In this document: one piece after another, positions 45,001 to 51,000 of the stretch | Layout: each line of letters opens with the position of its first letter | Position numbering within the stretch: position 1 is the stretch's first letter | From: an uncultured Methanosarcinales archaeon | Lineage (GTDB): Archaea > Nanobdellota > Nanobdellia > Woesearchaeales > CAZPJY01 | Length of the DNA stretch: 61,691 bases | Direction of reading: 5' to 3' | Assembly (NCBI GenBank): GCA_964587045.1 | Contig: CAZPJY010000001.1 | Location: forward strand, 62,001 to 123,691 | Position numbers: made by a program

Positions 45001-48000
45001 TCGCTTGAGCTCTTCGCACTCGTTCTTGATGATGTCGCGTACCTTGACCTCGGAGTCGAGGATGGACTTGTACTCTGCGATCATCTTGAGGGTCTCTGCT
45101 TGGTCGTCCTTTATCTTATGCTGCTCGAGGCTTGTCAGCTTCTGCAGCTTCATGTCGAGAATGGCCTGCGCCTGCTCTTCGCTCAGCTTGAACACGAGAG
45201 TAAGCTGGGACCTGGCGGACTCCACCGATTTCGAGGCCCTTATGAGAGGGATGACCCTGTCGATGTTGTTGAGCGCAACCAGCAACCCTTCAAGGATGTG
45301 AGCCTTCTGCTGGGCCTTTTTGAGGTCGAAAGCAGTCCTCCTGCGGATTATCCTGATCCTATGCTTTATGAAGGCCTCGATGAACTCCTTGAGGGAGAAT
45401 ATCCTGGGCTTGCTGTCCTCGAGGGCCAGCATGTTGGCCCCGAAGGTCACCTGGAGCCTGGTGTGCTTGAACAGCTGGTTTAAGACTATGTCCTCATGCG
45501 CGTCCCTCTTGAGCTCGATGACGACCCTCATTCCGGTCCTGTCAGACTCGTCGCGGATGTCGCTGATCCCTTCGATGATCTTGTTCTTGACCATATCGGC
45601 GATTTGTTCGATCAGCACGGCCTTGTTCACCATGAAAGGGATCTCTGTGATTATGATGCTGTTCCTGTTGCCTTTCTCTTCTGTGTGGGTCTTGGCCCTG
45701 ACGACTACCCTCCCCCTCCCGTTCAGGTAGGTGTCCTTTATCCCTGACCTTCCGAGGATAATTCCGCCTGTCGGGAAGTCCGGCCCAGTTATTATATCCA
45801 TCAATTCAATAATGCTAATGTCTGGGTTGTCGACTGTTTGGATTATCGCATTCAGCACCTCGTTGAGGTTATGTGGCGGGATGTTGGTGGCCATCCCCAC
45901 TGCTATACCGCTTGAGCCGTTTACTAGGAGGTTTGGGAACTTGCTTGGAAGGACCATGGGCTCCTGCAGAGAGCCGTCGAAGTTGGGCATGAACTTCACA
46001 GTGTTCTTATCGATGTCTTCGAGCATCTCCTCTGCCTTCCGGTCCAGCCTGGCTTCAGTGTACCTCATTGCGGCAGCAGAATCGCCGTCGATGCTTCCGA
46101 AGTTGCCCTGCCCTTGCACGAGCATGTACCTCATCGAGAAGTCCTGAGCGAGCCTGACCATCGCGTCATATACTGACATGTCTCCGTGGGGGTGATACTT
46201 GCCAAGCACCTCACCCACGATCCTGGCGGATTTCTTGAAAGGCCTGTTGTGGAGGTTGCCCATATCCCTCATGGCGAAGAGGATGCGCCTGTGAACCGGC
46301 TTCAGGCCGTCCCTGACATCAGGCAGGGCGCGTGAAACTATGACAGACATGGCGTAGTCTAGAAATGAGCTTTTCATCTCATCTTCTATTTCCCGAGGGT
46401 TGACTTCATCCCTCAACTCGTTCGACTCCATCAGCATCCCTTATGACCCTGAGAAAAAGGTCGTTTCTCGTCGATAAATGGAGTATGAACCGAATTTAAA
46501 TAAGTTGCGTTTTTCTGGGCAATATTTATATACTGGAGACGCGGTTTCCAGTGTGTGGATTGGAAAGACCTCGCCTTGAGAATAGCGCAGTTCCGGAAGT
46601 ATGAAGAGCAGTTTTTAAAGGACTTTGACAGGAGGTACAAGACTTTCTATGTGCACAACAAGCTGGTCGTAAGCGTTGTCGACAAGCGCCTGGAGCCTCT
46701 CCACCTCGAGCACGAGTACGTTAGGGGAGACCCAAAAAAGCTGGAGGGACTCAGAGGCGACCAGAGGATACTCCTGGAGAACCCCGTGCCTGATGAGATA
46801 AGGAGGAGGATGAGGGGGAACTTCGCCCAGATACTCGGAAACATCCACAGGGAGTTCGACGGCATCACGAGAATGGTCGACAGCGACAAGATGGAGGTAG
46901 GGGAGGGGGAGATACTCGACCTGCTCAAAGGGGAGAACTCAGTCCTGAACTCCGCAATCCTCGAGAGTGTCAGGCACGCCGCCCTGGGGGACATCCCTGC
47001 AGCTGAAGGGAGATTCCAGGAGGTTATTAGAGGATTCCAGGTTATAAAGGCTGACGGCAGGAATTCCCAGGAGGCGATGACCTATATTGCGGATCTCCTG
47101 AACCGGTGGCATGTCATGCTTGCCAACATAAAAAAGGAGGTCAAAGAAGAGGAGAATACGCTGAATTCCCTGCAGAGGATTATTTTGTCTGACGGTGTAA
47201 AGTACATGGATGTGGCGCCTCTGCTTATCCGCCTGAGACGCGTTGCGCAGAACATCAACTTTGAGATGTCCAGGGAGCAGAAGGAATTCATCATCCCGAT
47301 AAGGACAATCCTGCAGAAGGAATTCGACTACAACGAGAGGATCGAGAAGTGGGTGGAGCGGATCGGGAGTCAGGAGAAGAGGAGGTTCGCAACCATGCTG
47401 CCCTGGGTCCGGAAATCAGCTGAAGGCCAGTTCGTCTACGAGATGAAACAGGACCTAAGGAAGTTCGGGGCTTCCGAGGATGTCATAGACTACTGCAACA
47501 AGGTCAACCAGCACCTGGCAAAGAGTGGACTCCCCTCATCGCTGATAGCGCGGATAAGGATGCATACCGACGCCTACATCAGGATGTCGACGCGAAAAGC
47601 CAAGCAGCAGAGGGATATGCTAAACTATGAATCCTACAGGAAGAACATAGATCCTTTGACTCTTGCTCTGCGTAGGGATACACTCCTTACGATCATGCCC
47701 AAAATCCTAGGCCAGAGGAAGAGGGAGGCTAAAGGCTACATAGGACTAATCATGTTTGACATAGACCATTTCAAGCAGTTCAACGACAGGTACGGTCACC
47801 ACGTCGGTGACGAAGTGCTTCACTTCGTGGGCACCATTACCAAAGGGATGGTTCGGAAGAGCGACTTCTTCTCAAGGCATGGGGGCGAGGAGTTCCTCAT
47901 ATTCATGCCTGACACAAAGAACCCGACCAGCCCCTTAGCTCTAGCCGAGAAGATTAGGAAGAGAATTGAGGAGGGGAGCAGGGAGAAGATAGTCATGCAG

Positions 48001-51000
48001 GTCACGATCAGCTGCGGCGTCGGGGTTTTCAAGCCAACCAACAAGGTAGTAAGCGAAATGTCCCTCATGTCCCTTAGGGATTCCATGATCAAGATGGTCG
48101 ATGAGAAGCTTTACGTTTCCAAGAACTCAGGCAGGAACCGTTCGACAAGCTTAGGTTCTGTCGTCCCTATCTGACTTCTGACAATACATGATTCATTATT
48201 ATGAAGCTGCGGCCGCAGTAGACGCAGGATTTCCTTTTCCCGCCTACAGGGTTTCCCCCGTATTTCATCTGGTTCCCGCAATGGGGGCATTTTAGAAGCA
48301 GCATCTTACATGAGATCCTTGAGCGCGGGATCTAGTTTCCTTTTCGGGCCCACTTCGGGCTTCTTTTCATCCGGAGGTTCTTCCTGTGGTTGTTCTTCTT
48401 CTGGTTGCTCTTCAGGAACTTCTTGTGGTTGTTCTTCTGGGGTTTCTTCTTCTGGTTGCTCTTCAGGNNNNNNNNNNNNNNNNNNNNNNNNNNNNNNNNN
48501 NNNNNNNNNNNNNNNNNNNNNNNNNNNNNNNNNNNNNNNNNNNNNNNNNNNNNNNNNNNNNNNNNNNCAGGAACTTCTTGTGGTTGTTCTTCTGGGGTTT
48601 CTTCTTCTGGTTGCTCTTCAGGAACTTCTTGTGGTTGTTCTTCTGGGGTTTCTTCTTCTGGTTGCTCTTCAGGCTGTTCTTTTGTTGGCGCTTCTTCGGC
48701 TTCTTCTTGTGGTTGCTCTTCTGAGGGCTCTTCCTCTTCTATCTGCTCAGGAGCTACGGGTTTCTCACTTTCTGCTTCCTCCTGAGGCCTCTCATCGACG
48801 ACTTCAAGCATCCCAAGCTTCTCCCCCTCATCCTTGTCCAGCTCCTTGGGCTCCTCAGGGGCCTTCTCCTCGTCGTACACTTCAAGCCCTCCCAGCTTCT
48901 TCTTATCAAAGGCCTCGGTTATCTTCTTCTGGCCGTCAGCTAGCCTGACACTCTTGAGGATGTCCTTGATGCCCTTGTCACCCTCGATATCAAAATACTC
49001 GAAGAATTTCTCGGAGAGCTTCACCAGGTAAGTCCGGCCGTACTTCTCCTTCTTGAGAAAGCCGAGTTCCTCAAGCTCTTTGATGTGTTCGTAGCCCTTG
49101 TTCCCTCTTATTTCTATTACTTCAGACTGCCTTACAGGACTCTTCCATGCTATGACTGCCAAGGTCTCCAGTGTGGCCTTGGAGAGCTCGGTGTCTGCGA
49201 CGATTTTCCTCACGAGAGGTAGGAAGGGCTCCCTTACGGTCATCTTCCATGAGTCTTTCTCCTCCACTATCATGAGCGGCCGACCCTCGAAGTCCTTCCT
49301 TAGGCTTTCAAGGGCCTTTTTCACAGAAGCCGTGTTGGATTCGGTAAGCCGGACGAGGTCCTCGACGCTTATCGGCTTGCCCGAGGCGAAGAGCAGAGCT
49401 TCGACCTTGTTTTGGAGTTCTTTAGACATTGAGCCTGCCTATCATGGTATAAACTGATTTCGAATGAGTGATGATGTTTTGTTCTTCGAGCTCCTTGAGA
49501 TAGGGCTTTATACCCTTCTCATCTACGCCGACCATCTTGCATAGGGTCTTGATGTCCTTGTCGCCGTCCCTCAGCCCCAGGATGATCATGTTTTTGATGA
49601 TGATCCTCATCTTCTTGGTAATTATGGAGTTGTGGGCCTTTATCTCCCTGGCCATCGCTTCGACCTGGTGATGCTTGCCAATGAAATCATGTATGAGGTC
49701 CTTGAACCTTGCGGTCTTCATCGTAATCTTATCGGGTTCCAGTATCTCGACTGAGGAAGGCATGAAGTTGAATGTGAAGTCGAGGATGTGATGTATGTTC
49801 TTAAAGAGGATTTCGGTCTCGATGAAGGTCGAGAAGAGGCCTTCCTCCTGCGGCTCGACAGATGCCACCTCAGAGCTGAGGACCGTTAGTCTCTCCAGGC
49901 TCTTTATCTGCTTTTCCAGGTCTTTTGCTGTCTTTTCGACGTGCTCCTTTGGCTTCCCGAGGATCTCTAGGATGATCCTTGTCAGGATCGAACCTTCCTC
50001 GATTTTCTCTTTCAGTTCCTTCTTGTCCATTGTCAGTGCCACAAGGCGGCCAGTAAGGCCGCCATTAGCGTCAGTAAGAACAGGTAGTATATATTCTTTT
50101 TTGCTTTTATCGACGAGGATTCAAATACCACGCCTGCCGGCATTTCATCTGGTAGTGGTGGTGGCAGGGGCTCGGAATCATTCTCAACTTGAGGCTCTGG
50201 GGATTCGATGACCGCTGCCGTGTTTTTCTTTGGCAATGTTACCATGACCCAGCTGCGTATCTCCTTCCAGGTCTTCCTGCCCTTCTCTCTCGCAAGGGCC
50301 TTGACGCTGAAGTTGCCGCTCTCGTTGACGTTGTTTACCAATTCGACTGATCTGGTCTCGAAAGGTCCTAATCTGATCCTCATCATGTTGTATTCCCTTT
50401 CGCCGGAGTAGCTCTTGGAGCCGCGGTAGACGTAGCTGTAGATGTCGACATCCATCTGGATATCCTCGTTGTTGTGTAATACTATTTCACTGGTCACCTC
50501 GCTTCCTCGGGAGGATACAGGCGTCAGGGAAAAGTTGTACCCAGTTAGCTTTTTTGGCGTTGGGAAGCACTTGTTTCCAGGCTTGAGCGTTGTTTCTTCT
50601 GTCGATGAGAGTCCCAGCCCTTGGGCAGTGACTGTGATTTTTGTCGTGTTCCCGCATGGCTCGCCCATCAGTATGGGAACGCTGATTTCATATTCTGTGT
50701 ATTTCTGGGCAAGCGTAATTGACGATGTCTCCCCAAGCGCTGACACCTTGACCGTCTTCTTGCTGGACGCCCCCCTGTTTGCGGTGATCGTGGCTTTGGC
50801 TGTGCTTCCCCAGTCGTATTCCGTCTTGTCTAGCTTGAGGTCGAGGTAAGGCTTCTCTTCCTGCGCCCCGACAACAGCGAAGATTTCCTCAGCGTAATCA
50901 TCCTTAATATCAGTGTCGTTGCATCTTAGGGAAGAGATTCTGGCCTTCAGCAGGTATGCTGCGTCCGCCTCTTCTGCCTTGGCTTTCCATTTCTTGGGGT

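What a model noticed while it worked through the whole genome (the two positions that open the first line are those of the whole stretch)
46555..48174. Diguanylate cyclase and HD-GYP-type gene; GGDEF enzymes are common, not sporadic, in Woesearchaeales
g00053 is a soluble GGDEF protein with an intact active site (DIDHFKQFNDRYGHHVGD, GGEEF) among archaeal core genes, and g01721 (C43:5915-6544) is a stand-alone HD-GYP-like protein. About 45% of Woesearchaeales carry GGDEF enzymes, including a conserved PocR-GAF-GGDEF family at a recurring locus, so c-di-GMP synthesis looks native to this order.
Evidence so far: 69 of 151 genomes match, including three single-contig genomes; table: 359 of 822. 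GG(D/E)E(F/I/L) is intact in the main frame of 23 of 24 relative loci. Twelve form one ~510-aa family, 6 of them beside the same YGR210-like GTPase; PocR+GAF+GGDEF by Pfam in 3 of 4 tested.
(Added by a program. Inside this text positions count along the whole contig: contig position 62,001 is position 1 of the stretch shown here. "Call 12" and the like, gene names such as g00115 and contig names such as C1 are that model's own, and its searches are not shown. The text may have been shortened before it was handed on; [...] marks where a part breaks off. The agent that wrote the report below was given it as the finding of a first reader that could run no searches.)

Follow-up and report, generated by a model that had tools for sequence, protein, structure and literature searches.

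The report
Common c-di-GMP synthases in tiny archaea
This archaeal gene encodes an apparently intact enzyme for the bacterial lifestyle signal c-di-GMP, joined to an undescribed helical domain, and such enzymes turn out to be common rather than rare in this group of small symbiotic archaea, although their known receptors are nearly missing.

Summary
g00053 (46555-48174) is a real, soluble GGDEF gene with catalytic residues and I-site intact, on an archaeal contig, with average codon use. Prevalence holds: 150 of 301 order genomes match (131 at E<=1e-15), often at several loci. It is not order-specific: a sister order gives 49 of 121. Two first-reader points fail. (1) The N-terminus has homologs: it is a ~300-aa all-helical, Pfam-less domain fused to GGDEF in 27 sampled proteins (13 families of the order, 2 of the sister order, 1 unplaced); no bacterial case was seen. 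(2) The PocR-GAF-GGDEF family covers only 12 of 201 genomes. The known downstream machinery is scarce: EAL 4/151, HD_5 34/151, PilZ 1/41, MshEN 0/41. g01721 keeps the HD-GYP metal ligands but has a variant PYP loop. Archaeal diguanylate cyclases, including cloned Woesearchaeota proteins, were published in 2026 (PMC13725321); that paper calls them occasional, single-copy, and not systematically surveyed. New here: the prevalence, the helical-domain family, and the synthesis-without-receptor imbalance. Activity of g00053, the input signal, the output and the origin (ancestral versus early transfers) remain open.

The parts
46555..48174 (+). g00053: soluble helical-domain-GGDEF diguanylate cyclase, 539 aa, stand-alone gene
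   Evidence: ORF; PF00990; TIGR00254; start agrees with two full-length homologs (M1, D2, K4 shared); codon adaptation at 40th and GC3 at 51st percentile of 983 long ORFs of G000
46555..47640 (+). N-terminal all-helical domain of an undescribed family (residues 1-362); conserved F24, R27, H34, E199, L227, E241, P248, D300, Y313 and the stretch I-T-x-x-D-I-x-x-D...P-x-E-x-x-x-Y (diverged in g00053)
   Evidence: 22-member cluster, reversed-sequence control without cross-hits, leave-out profile scores it 70 bits versus at most 8.4 in 500 shuffles, column counts over 27 proteins; no Pfam or NCBIfam family; helical only in low-confidence models
47647..48141 (+). GGDEF domain (residues 365-529)
   Evidence: best solved relatives 3IGN, WspR, DosC, PleD by sequence; same fold class from a low-confidence model
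47650..47661 (+). DxLT wide turn (DPLT); the usual following Asn is Arg373 here, as in the two closest homologs' diverged turn
   Evidence: sequence; alignments (Asn in 16 of 27 family members)
47758..47811 (+). Metal-binding D402, K407, guanine-binding N410 and D419 (Asp, not the Ser of Hypr enzymes)
   Evidence: sequence; signature described in PMC13725321 section 2.4
47854..47865 (+). I-site RxxD (RKSD), five residues before GGEEF
   Evidence: sequence; R in 23 and D in 25 of 27 family members
47881..47895 (+). GGEEF active-site hairpin
   Evidence: sequence; GG(D/E)E in 27 of 27 family members
43816..46437 (-). gyrA, divergent neighbour (context only)
48332..49429 (-). scpB, convergent neighbour with a low-complexity tail holding a 100-base N gap at 48468-48567 (context only)

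Best explanation
g00053 is a resident archaeal diguanylate cyclase. SHOWN: an intact GGDEF domain (DxLT turn, D402, K407, N410, D419, GGEEF, C-terminal K/GRN) with an RxxD feedback site, fused to a ~300-aa helical domain that recurs, always ahead of a GGDEF domain, across the order and a sister order. INFERRED from PleD/WspR-type enzymes: two GTP-loaded domains must meet to make c-di-GMP, the helical domain and the helix before DxLT set that pairing in response to an unknown cue (most likely a protein partner or cell-state signal, since no ligand-binding fold is recognisable), and product binding at the I-site caps output. At lineage scale, 40-50% of genomes in these two orders carry GGDEF enzymes from a mixed stock: lineage-restricted families (helical-GGDEF, PocR-GAF-GGDEF) kept and lost patchily, plus bacterial-type PAS/GAF/REC fusions. 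c-di-GMP is then read inside the archaeal cell by receptors that are not PilZ or MshEN (candidates: degenerate tandem GGDEF proteins, PgaC-like glycosyltransferases, pilus ATPases) and removed by HD-GYP variants or other hydrolases.
For: Motifs and family conservation: D402, D404, F406, N410, R441, G443, G444, E446, S486, G488 in 27 of 27 helical-family proteins, D419 in 26, while the N-termini are only 12-23% identical to g00053. Core catalytic set intact in 156 of 172 archaeal domains aligned; Ser at the Hypr position in 1. Prevalence 150 of 301, 111 of 251 phylum-wide, 49 of 121 in the sister order; three separate loci in single-contig G016. Weak matches are GGDEF too: 25 of 25 weak-hit loci hold an ORF scoring on my GGDEF profile. 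Helical profile hits none of the 79 bacterially titled loci or the 116 proteins P0002-P0117; phmmer of the g00053 N-terminus over 1.84 billion proteins finds only two relatives, both helical-GGDEF, one in order genome G558 among housekeeping genes. GGDEF domains of the helical family held as one group are not rejected (p-AU 0.85; constrained tree 36 log-likelihood units better than the quick free tree) and 12 PocR-family domains form one side with support 91. Same-family genomes pair with starred support. PocR family sits by oapB/oapC, a small GTPase and the YchF-like GTPase in G002, G016 and G345. A Ca. Woesearchaeota protein (RJQ22058.1) behaved as a cyclase in three in vivo assays (PMC13725321).
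Against: No activity test of g00053; it has Arg for the usual Asn after DxLT, His in RHGGEEF and Val/Ser for two usually-Ala positions. Known outputs are nearly absent: PilZ 1 of 41, MshEN 0 of 41, ComFB 0 in G000; EAL 4 of 151 over cut-off; HD_5 34 of 151 over cut-off, not significantly tied to GGDEF (22 of 36 versus 75 of 151; Fisher p 0.13, kin not independent). In a 374-domain FastTree the 165 archaeal domains fall in 55 separate groups; deep nodes are unresolved, and sister-order members are interleaved with order members, so a single ancestral origin is not shown. In PMC13725321 the PocR-GAF protein MBT3408960.1 raised biofilm independently of catalysis. c-di-GMP has not been detected in any archaeon (PMC13725321 abstract, PMC10249747 passage).
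Confidence: 0.65

Rival explanations
1. Repeated, independent pick-ups from bacteria with no shared archaeal signalling role: small archaea living on or among bacteria keep acquiring GGDEF genes, which persist for a while and are lost.
For: 55 separate archaeal groups in the large tree; 53 of 144 N-termini fall in one cluster of bacterial-type PAS/GAF/REC/PocR inputs; patchy distribution; no recognised receptor; helical-family genes share no neighbour in the three loci read.
Against: Two architectures are restricted to these archaea in my samples; synteny of the PocR family across families; f42 22 of 22; strict active-site conservation over very divergent proteins; g00053 codon use is average for its genome. 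This rival may still hold for part of the stock.
Confidence: 0.15
2. The product is meant for the partner cell: these episymbionts make c-di-GMP (or hand over the helical cyclase) to push a bacterial host towards sessility, adhesion or matrix production.
For: Synthesis is common while PilZ, MshEN and EAL are rare; the helical domain is lineage-specific and has no sensor fold; that DPANN archaea are largely host-dependent is general knowledge (abstracts listed).
Against: No signal peptide or membrane segment (hydropathy only); I-site kept in about 20 of 24 helical domains, which suits a self-limiting intracellular signal; canonical HD-GYP proteins do occur in the order; many other members carry ordinary cytoplasmic sensors; unknown receptors are common even in bacteria (ComFB paper abstract).
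Confidence: 0.1
3. g00053 is not a c-di-GMP synthase in practice: it makes another cyclic dinucleotide, or acts as a GTP/c-di-GMP-binding scaffold.
For: Deviations around the wide turn and RHGGEEF; several archaeal MAG proteins gave inconsistent or catalysis-independent phenotypes (PMC13725321 section 2.13).
Against: D419 rather than Ser (not Hypr); all metal and guanine ligands present; 23 of 24 helical-family domains pass the core test.
Confidence: 0.08
4. Binning or assembly artefact: bacterial DNA in archaeal MAGs (the caution of PMC5847659 and the HD-GYP survey).
For: All genomes are MAGs; the one public run laid gives only short contigs, none listed as spanning gene and neighbours.
Against: 123.7-kb contig with archaeal markers, contamination 0.53%; homolog in another order genome among housekeeping genes; matches in single-contig genomes G016, G024, G071; gene pieces and neighbour pieces occur at similar low depth in run X1 (may be the source sample).
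Confidence: 0.02

Closest known systems
Archaeal GGDEF proteins of Sidorov et al. 2026 (PMC13725321): Methanocella GGDEF_MRE50, RJQ22058.1, MBT3408960.1, MBI4145595.1, KHO53915.1, KHO53289.1
   Same: Archaeal GGDEF proteins with intact motifs; 20 MAG proteins mainly from DPANN; PocR-GAF architecture named; three templates are titled Ca. Woesearchaeota. By eye, MBT3408960.1 is of the PocR-GAF family and MBI4145595.1 has a helical N-terminus with the H..V..L and F-S-K-P-x-E motifs of the family found here (not computed).
   Different: The paper made no systematic survey, judged them occasional and not multi-copy; 'woese' occurs 0 times and MBI4145595 0 times in its main text. It gives no prevalence, synteny, helical-domain family or receptor census in the parts I read; figures 5A, S6 and S7 are images I could not see.
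Bacterial class I diguanylate cyclases (PleD, WspR, DosC, SiaD, DgcZ)
   Same: Fold, catalytic residues, DxLT turn and RxxD I-site.
   Different: Input domain is not REC, globin, CZB, PAS, GAF or HAMP; no NCBIfam equivalog reaches its cut-off.
HD-GYP phosphodiesterases (Galperin and Chou, bioRxiv 10.1101/2021.11.05.467447; e.g. PmGH, RpfG)
   Same: g01721 aligns over the whole domain with the first His, HDxGK, the second His, HHE, the Asp of D-x-x-D, R-x-Y-K and the Tyr-Pro of GYP.
   Different: HHEYKTNDPYP replaces HHExxDGxGYP and an 11-residue insert follows; similar variants occur in G060 and G079, which have no GGDEF match.
Hypr GGDEF cGAMP synthases (GSU1658-type)
   Same: Same domain family.
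   Different: Asp419 instead of the signature Ser; Ser in 1 of 172 archaeal domains.

Membership tests
GGDEF diguanylate cyclase (class I) | GGDEF domain over curated cut-off | tested here: met
   PF00990 98 bits vs 23.8; TIGR00254 114 vs 37.4
GGDEF diguanylate cyclase (class I) | GG(D/E)EF hairpin, metal Asp, transition-state Lys, guanine-binding Asn and Asp | tested here: met
   GGEEF 443-447, D402, K407, N410, D419
GGDEF diguanylate cyclase (class I) | DxLT wide turn followed by the conserved Asn | tested here: inconclusive
   DPLT present; Asn replaced by Arg373; Asn in 16 of 27 family members
GGDEF diguanylate cyclase (class I) | RxxD inhibitory site | tested here: met
   RKSD 434-437
GGDEF diguanylate cyclase (class I) | Makes c-di-GMP from GTP as a dimer | not testable with these tools
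   needs assay
Hypr GGDEF (cGAMP synthase) | Ser at the xxG(D/S) position | tested here: not met
   Asp419 (signature from PMC13725321)
PocR-GAF-GGDEF family | PocR and GAF domains before GGDEF | tested here: not met
   g00053 N-terminus has no Pfam hit; profile A3 finds nothing in G000
Helical-domain-GGDEF family (defined here) | ~300-aa helical N-terminus scoring on a profile built without it | tested here: met
   70.4 bits versus at most 8.4 in 500 shuffles; top hit among 7225 G000 frames at E 9e-19
HD-GYP phosphodiesterase (g01721) | Metal ligands H, HD, H, HH(E), D and the Lys after HD | tested here: met
   alignment with canonical order members
HD-GYP phosphodiesterase (g01721) | GYP motif (HHExxDGxGYP) | tested here: not met
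   HHEYKTNDPYP; Tyr and Pro kept, Asp-Gly and Gly lost; the Tyr is the c-di-GMP contact
HD-GYP phosphodiesterase (g01721) | Hydrolyses c-di-GMP | not testable with these tools
   needs assay
Complete bacterial-type c-di-GMP network | Recognised receptor (PilZ, MshEN, ComFB) | tested here: not met
   G000: 0, 0, 0; order: PilZ 1 of 41, MshEN 0 of 41
Complete bacterial-type c-di-GMP network | c-di-GMP riboswitch | tested here: inconclusive
   RF01051 0 in G000 but the control rang nowhere; no Rfam match in the window

The most novel reading that the evidence does not exclude
The two orders hold an old, self-built c-di-GMP system whose input (the helical domain) and output are both unlike the bacterial ones, and whose target lies in the partner cell: the episymbiont makes c-di-GMP, or delivers the helical cyclase across the contact site, to steer a bacterial host's adhesion and biofilm state. 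This would be cross-domain use of a second messenger as a host-manipulation tool.
Probability: 0.1. Interest if true: 0.92.

Novelty: new variant of a known kind. Interest (0 to 1): 0.62.

Why it matters
c-di-GMP is described as almost exclusively bacterial (PMC10249747, PMC5847659 passages), and the first experimental paper on archaeal cyclases says their frequency is unknown, probably occasional and single-copy, and lists origin, phosphodiesterase co-occurrence and receptors as open questions (PMC13725321 sections 3.2-3.3). The census here gives a direct number for two orders of reduced-genome archaea (40-50%, up to several loci per genome), shows that lineage-restricted architectures exist, and shows that the usual receptors are missing. 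That makes the search for an archaeal c-di-GMP receptor and the origin question testable, and supplies an unnamed input domain with conserved residues to mutate.

Tried and rejected
Word-indexed search with the g00053 N-terminus found only itself and with a 3-row profile only two of its members: too insensitive; the index-free search and clustering of relatives overturned 'no homologs'. AlphaFold2 models were poor (mean pLDDT 33 and 45), so no fold is claimed for the helical domain; the fold search matched only the GGDEF part. ESM Atlas: no usable hit for g00053; for member L243 best structural row TM 0.52 to an unnamed cluster. PDB hits of the helical profile are designed helical bundles, apolipoprotein and syntaxin at coiled-coil level (best E 1e-6): rejected as compositional. 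One genome hit of the helical profile (G019) is a chemoreceptor-like coiled coil, a false positive. The idea that the helical domain is a general module fused to many enzymes was not supported: no paralog in G000 and the other hits are GGDEF fusions or a fragment. Homodimer prediction of the helical domain gave no answer. No RNA holder listed for the gene. Plasmid tblastn and a metagenome pattern scan with L243's N-terminus found nothing (the latter reaches close relatives only). Promoter/terminator scan at chance level.

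
Full report
THE GENE. Window 46555-48174 (+) is a 539-aa ORF with a GTG start, between a divergent gyrA and a convergent scpB. Residues 365-529 are a GGDEF domain (PF00990 E 6e-28; TIGR00254 114 bits). The sequence shows the DPLT wide turn, DIDHFKQFNDRYGHHVGD, an RxxD I-site (RKSD) at the usual spacing, RHGGEEF and the C-terminal D..LY..K..GRN stretch. Position 419 is Asp, not the Ser that marks cGAMP-making Hypr enzymes (signature as given in PMC13725321). Deviations: Arg373 for the Asn after DxLT, His442, Val515 and Ser522. There is no hydrophobic segment. It is the only GGDEF match in G000. The contig is archaeal (RadA, archaeal uS2, aMBF1, PCNA), G000 is 100% complete with 0.53% contamination, and the gene's codon use is average (40th percentile codon adaptation, 51st GC3 among 983 long ORFs). 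One public run holds pieces of the gene and of its neighbours at similar low depth, but no listed contig spans them and it may be the source sample.

PREVALENCE. Of 301 genomes of the order at least 90% complete, 150 match PF00990 over the cut-off; by hand count of that table, 138 at E<=1e-10, 131 at E<=1e-15, and 51 of the 150 have two or more matches (matches are not copy numbers; single-contig G016 has three separate loci). The sample is spread over families, not proportional to species, and includes four unpublished genomes (G165, G168, G236, G299). Phylum-wide, 111 of 251 match at E<=1e-10, with strong lineage structure: f42 22 of 22, f80 15 of 28, f67 1 of 9, f108 0 of 12 (includes unpublished G168, G408). 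A sister order of the same class gives 49 of 121 (37 of 94 among >=90% complete), so the trait is class-wide, not order-specific; that this order is Pacearchaeales is my guess from recall. I fetched about 180 mostly stronger matches; of 172 domains spanning at least 120 profile positions (two loci of an unpublished genome dropped), 156 keep the core set D, N, D, (G/S/A)G(D/E)E. Twenty-five loci with weak matches all hold a GGDEF-like ORF, some degenerate. I did not survey other archaeal phyla.

THE N-TERMINUS IS A FAMILY. An index-free search of 1.84 billion proteins found two relatives of residues 1-362 (E 2e-19, 6e-8); both are colinear helical-GGDEF proteins and one lies in order genome G558, family f89, among housekeeping genes. 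Clustering 144 N-termini of the fetched archaeal GGDEF proteins gave a 22-member group containing g00053; reversed sequences gave no cross-hit; a profile built without g00053 and its G558 relative scores g00053 at 70 bits against at most 8.4 for 500 shuffles. With five further members (two weak) the family has 27 proteins: 20 from 13 families of the order, 6 from 2 families of the sister order, 1 unplaced. It has no Pfam or meaningful NCBIfam, PDB or Atlas match, is soluble and helical in low-confidence models. Conserved: F24, R27, H34 near the start; E199, L227, E241, P248; and I-T-x-x-D-I-x-x-D...P-x-E-x-x-x-Y just before the linker. The profile hits 11 of 201 order genomes (nine were in the profile, one is new, one is a chemoreceptor-like false positive) and 3 of 81 sister-order genomes: about 5%, a lower bound. 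It hits none of 79 bacterially titled loci or 116 other GGDEF proteins in hand; that bacterial sample is small.

THE PocR FAMILY. Full-length matches occur in 12 of 201 order genomes (profile includes one sequence of unpublished G165) and in three sister-order genomes. Nine of 14 order loci have the YGR210/YchF-like GTPase within the short flanks fetched (one locus unpublished); in G002, G016 and G345 the gene also lies by oapB/oapC and a small GTPase, in two cases behind a second GGDEF gene and a PfkB kinase, fused in G002. The three sister-order copies lie elsewhere. G000 has the oap genes and the GTPase but no such cyclase. So the two lineage-restricted families together explain roughly a quarter of GGDEF-positive genomes; the rest are PAS, GAF, REC, 7TM, short coiled-coil or orphan fusions.

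ORIGIN. On 152 columns, FastTree scatters 165 archaeal domains over 55 groups among 209 others; 18 domains around the PocR family form one group (0.989) and g00053 pairs with its two closest homologs (0.99). In a 72-row IQ-TREE analysis 12 PocR domains are one side (support 91, unstarred), and holding the 22 helical-family domains together is not rejected (p-AU 0.85; the constrained tree is better than the quick free tree), nor both families together (0.69). Full-length trees pair genomes of one family with starred support but leave the backbone open; sister-order members are interleaved, their monophyly not rejected (p-AU 0.22 and 0.097). Reading: long residence with paralogy, loss and perhaps exchange among these archaea; ancestral presence is not shown, and nothing here speaks to LUCA.

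TURNOVER AND OUTPUT. G000 has no EAL, PilZ, MshEN or ComFB match and one HD_5 match, g01721. g01721 keeps the metal ligands, the Lys after HD, R-x-Y-K and the Tyr-Pro, but reads HHEYKTNDPYP with an insert; like variants occur in G060 and G079, which lack a GGDEF match. It works like an HD-GYP enzyme at best; it fails the GYP test. In the order: EAL 4 of 151 over cut-off, HD_5 34 of 151 (includes unpublished G110), among them canonical HHExxDGxGYP proteins and a GGDEF-HD-GYP fusion, PilZ 1 of 41 and MshEN 0 of 41. Assuming the 151-genome draws are the first part of the 301-genome draw, 24 of 75 GGDEF-positive genomes have any EAL or HD_5 hit. Synthesis thus far outruns recognised breakdown and read-out.

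MECHANISM. Shown: intact catalytic and feedback residues under strong conservation, a dedicated helical input domain, wide and lineage-structured spread. Inferred from bacterial cyclases (established knowledge; also PMC13725321 section 2.3): activity needs dimer pairing set by the upstream helices, and the I-site limits output. Speculative: the cue, and the receptor. Candidates worth testing are degenerate tandem GGDEF proteins beside the PocR family, the PgaC/IcaA-like GT2 with a deacetylase fusion 4-10 kb upstream in this window (below the equivalog cut-off, not shown to be linked; c-di-GMP activation of PgaCD is recalled), and pilus ATPases.

LITERATURE. PMC13725321 (Sidorov et al. 2026): read abstract, introduction, sections 2.1-2.8, 2.12, 2.13, 3, 4.9, passages of 2.9, 2.10, 2.14, supplement parts 1-2 of 5 and searches of the rest; figures not seen. 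It shows cyclase activity for archaeal proteins, including Ca. Woesearchaeota RJQ22058.1, names a PocR-GAF combination, lists templates for three Ca. Woesearchaeota proteins, and states that prevalence was not surveyed and that such proteins seem occasional and not multi-copy. Its Figure 5A may label the N-terminus of MBI4145595.1; I could not see it. Passages only: PMC8646023 (over 300 archaeal GGDEF hits, many Asgard and DPANN), PMC5847659 (contamination caution), PMC10249747, PMC10086821, PMC9938205, bioRxiv 10.1101/2021.11.05.467447 (70 archaeal HD-GYP ORFs, possible contamination; its supplements were closed). Nine full-text searches listed no paper that, from title or abstract, gives a prevalence for these orders or describes the helical domain; subscription papers are not covered.

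VERDICT. Real and correctly read as a diguanylate cyclase in an archaeon. The headline that archaea, Woesearchaeota included, have such enzymes is already in print; the frequency, the class-wide reach, the helical-domain family to which this very gene belongs, and the lack of known receptors are new as far as I could search. New variant of a known kind; interest 0.62.

Noticed in passing
window 33712-42432 (+): Glycosylation cluster: PgaC/IcaA-like GT2 (36629-37894, TIGR03937 E 4e-55, under cut-off), a PMT-like protein fused to a polysaccharide-deacetylase-like domain (38585-41047) and another PMT-like protein; resembles an exopolysaccharide or surface-glycan locus and is a candidate c-di-GMP target.
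   Followed up: partly
window 1-20707 (+): Two large Ig/TSP3-repeat surface proteins followed by a dozen small Pfam-less ORFs whose starts look by eye like class III (pilin-type) signal peptides.
   Followed up: no
window 51597-52310 (-) and 24854-26077 (-): Kinase-like ORFs: the first has no Pfam or NCBIfam hit but H-D...N...Y-F-I-D-F-D motifs by eye; the second hits ABC1 atypical kinase weakly.
   Followed up: no
window 43816-46437 (-): Bacterial-type DNA gyrase subunit A (above equivalog cut-offs) in this archaeon, head to head with g00053 across a 117-base gap.
   Followed up: no
L062:5919-7583 and L061:7122-9187: PfkB kinase fused to GGDEF in G002 and split into adjacent PfkB and AGDEF-type GGDEF genes in G016, directly upstream of PocR-GAF-GGDEF: a possible sugar-linked input.
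   Followed up: partly
L061, L062, L064: The PocR-family locus lies next to oapB/oapC and their small GTPase (Pfam OapB, OapC); that these genes are linked to origins and to vesicle formation in haloarchaea is recalled.
   Followed up: partly
L032, L034: 330-356-aa GAF-GGDEF proteins of family f42 group with the PocR clade and sit beside the same GTPase, but lack PocR: domain loss in place.
   Followed up: partly
L323 (G019:C3): A methyl-accepting-chemotaxis-like protein next to RNase J in an order genome (read by eye).
   Followed up: no
L328 (G022:C93): The single PilZ match among 41 order genomes (E 9e-8); not examined.
   Followed up: no
window 54950-55050: A stretch that reads like a tRNA gene by eye in overlapping ORF translations, but ARAGORN and Rfam found nothing in the window.
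   Followed up: partly
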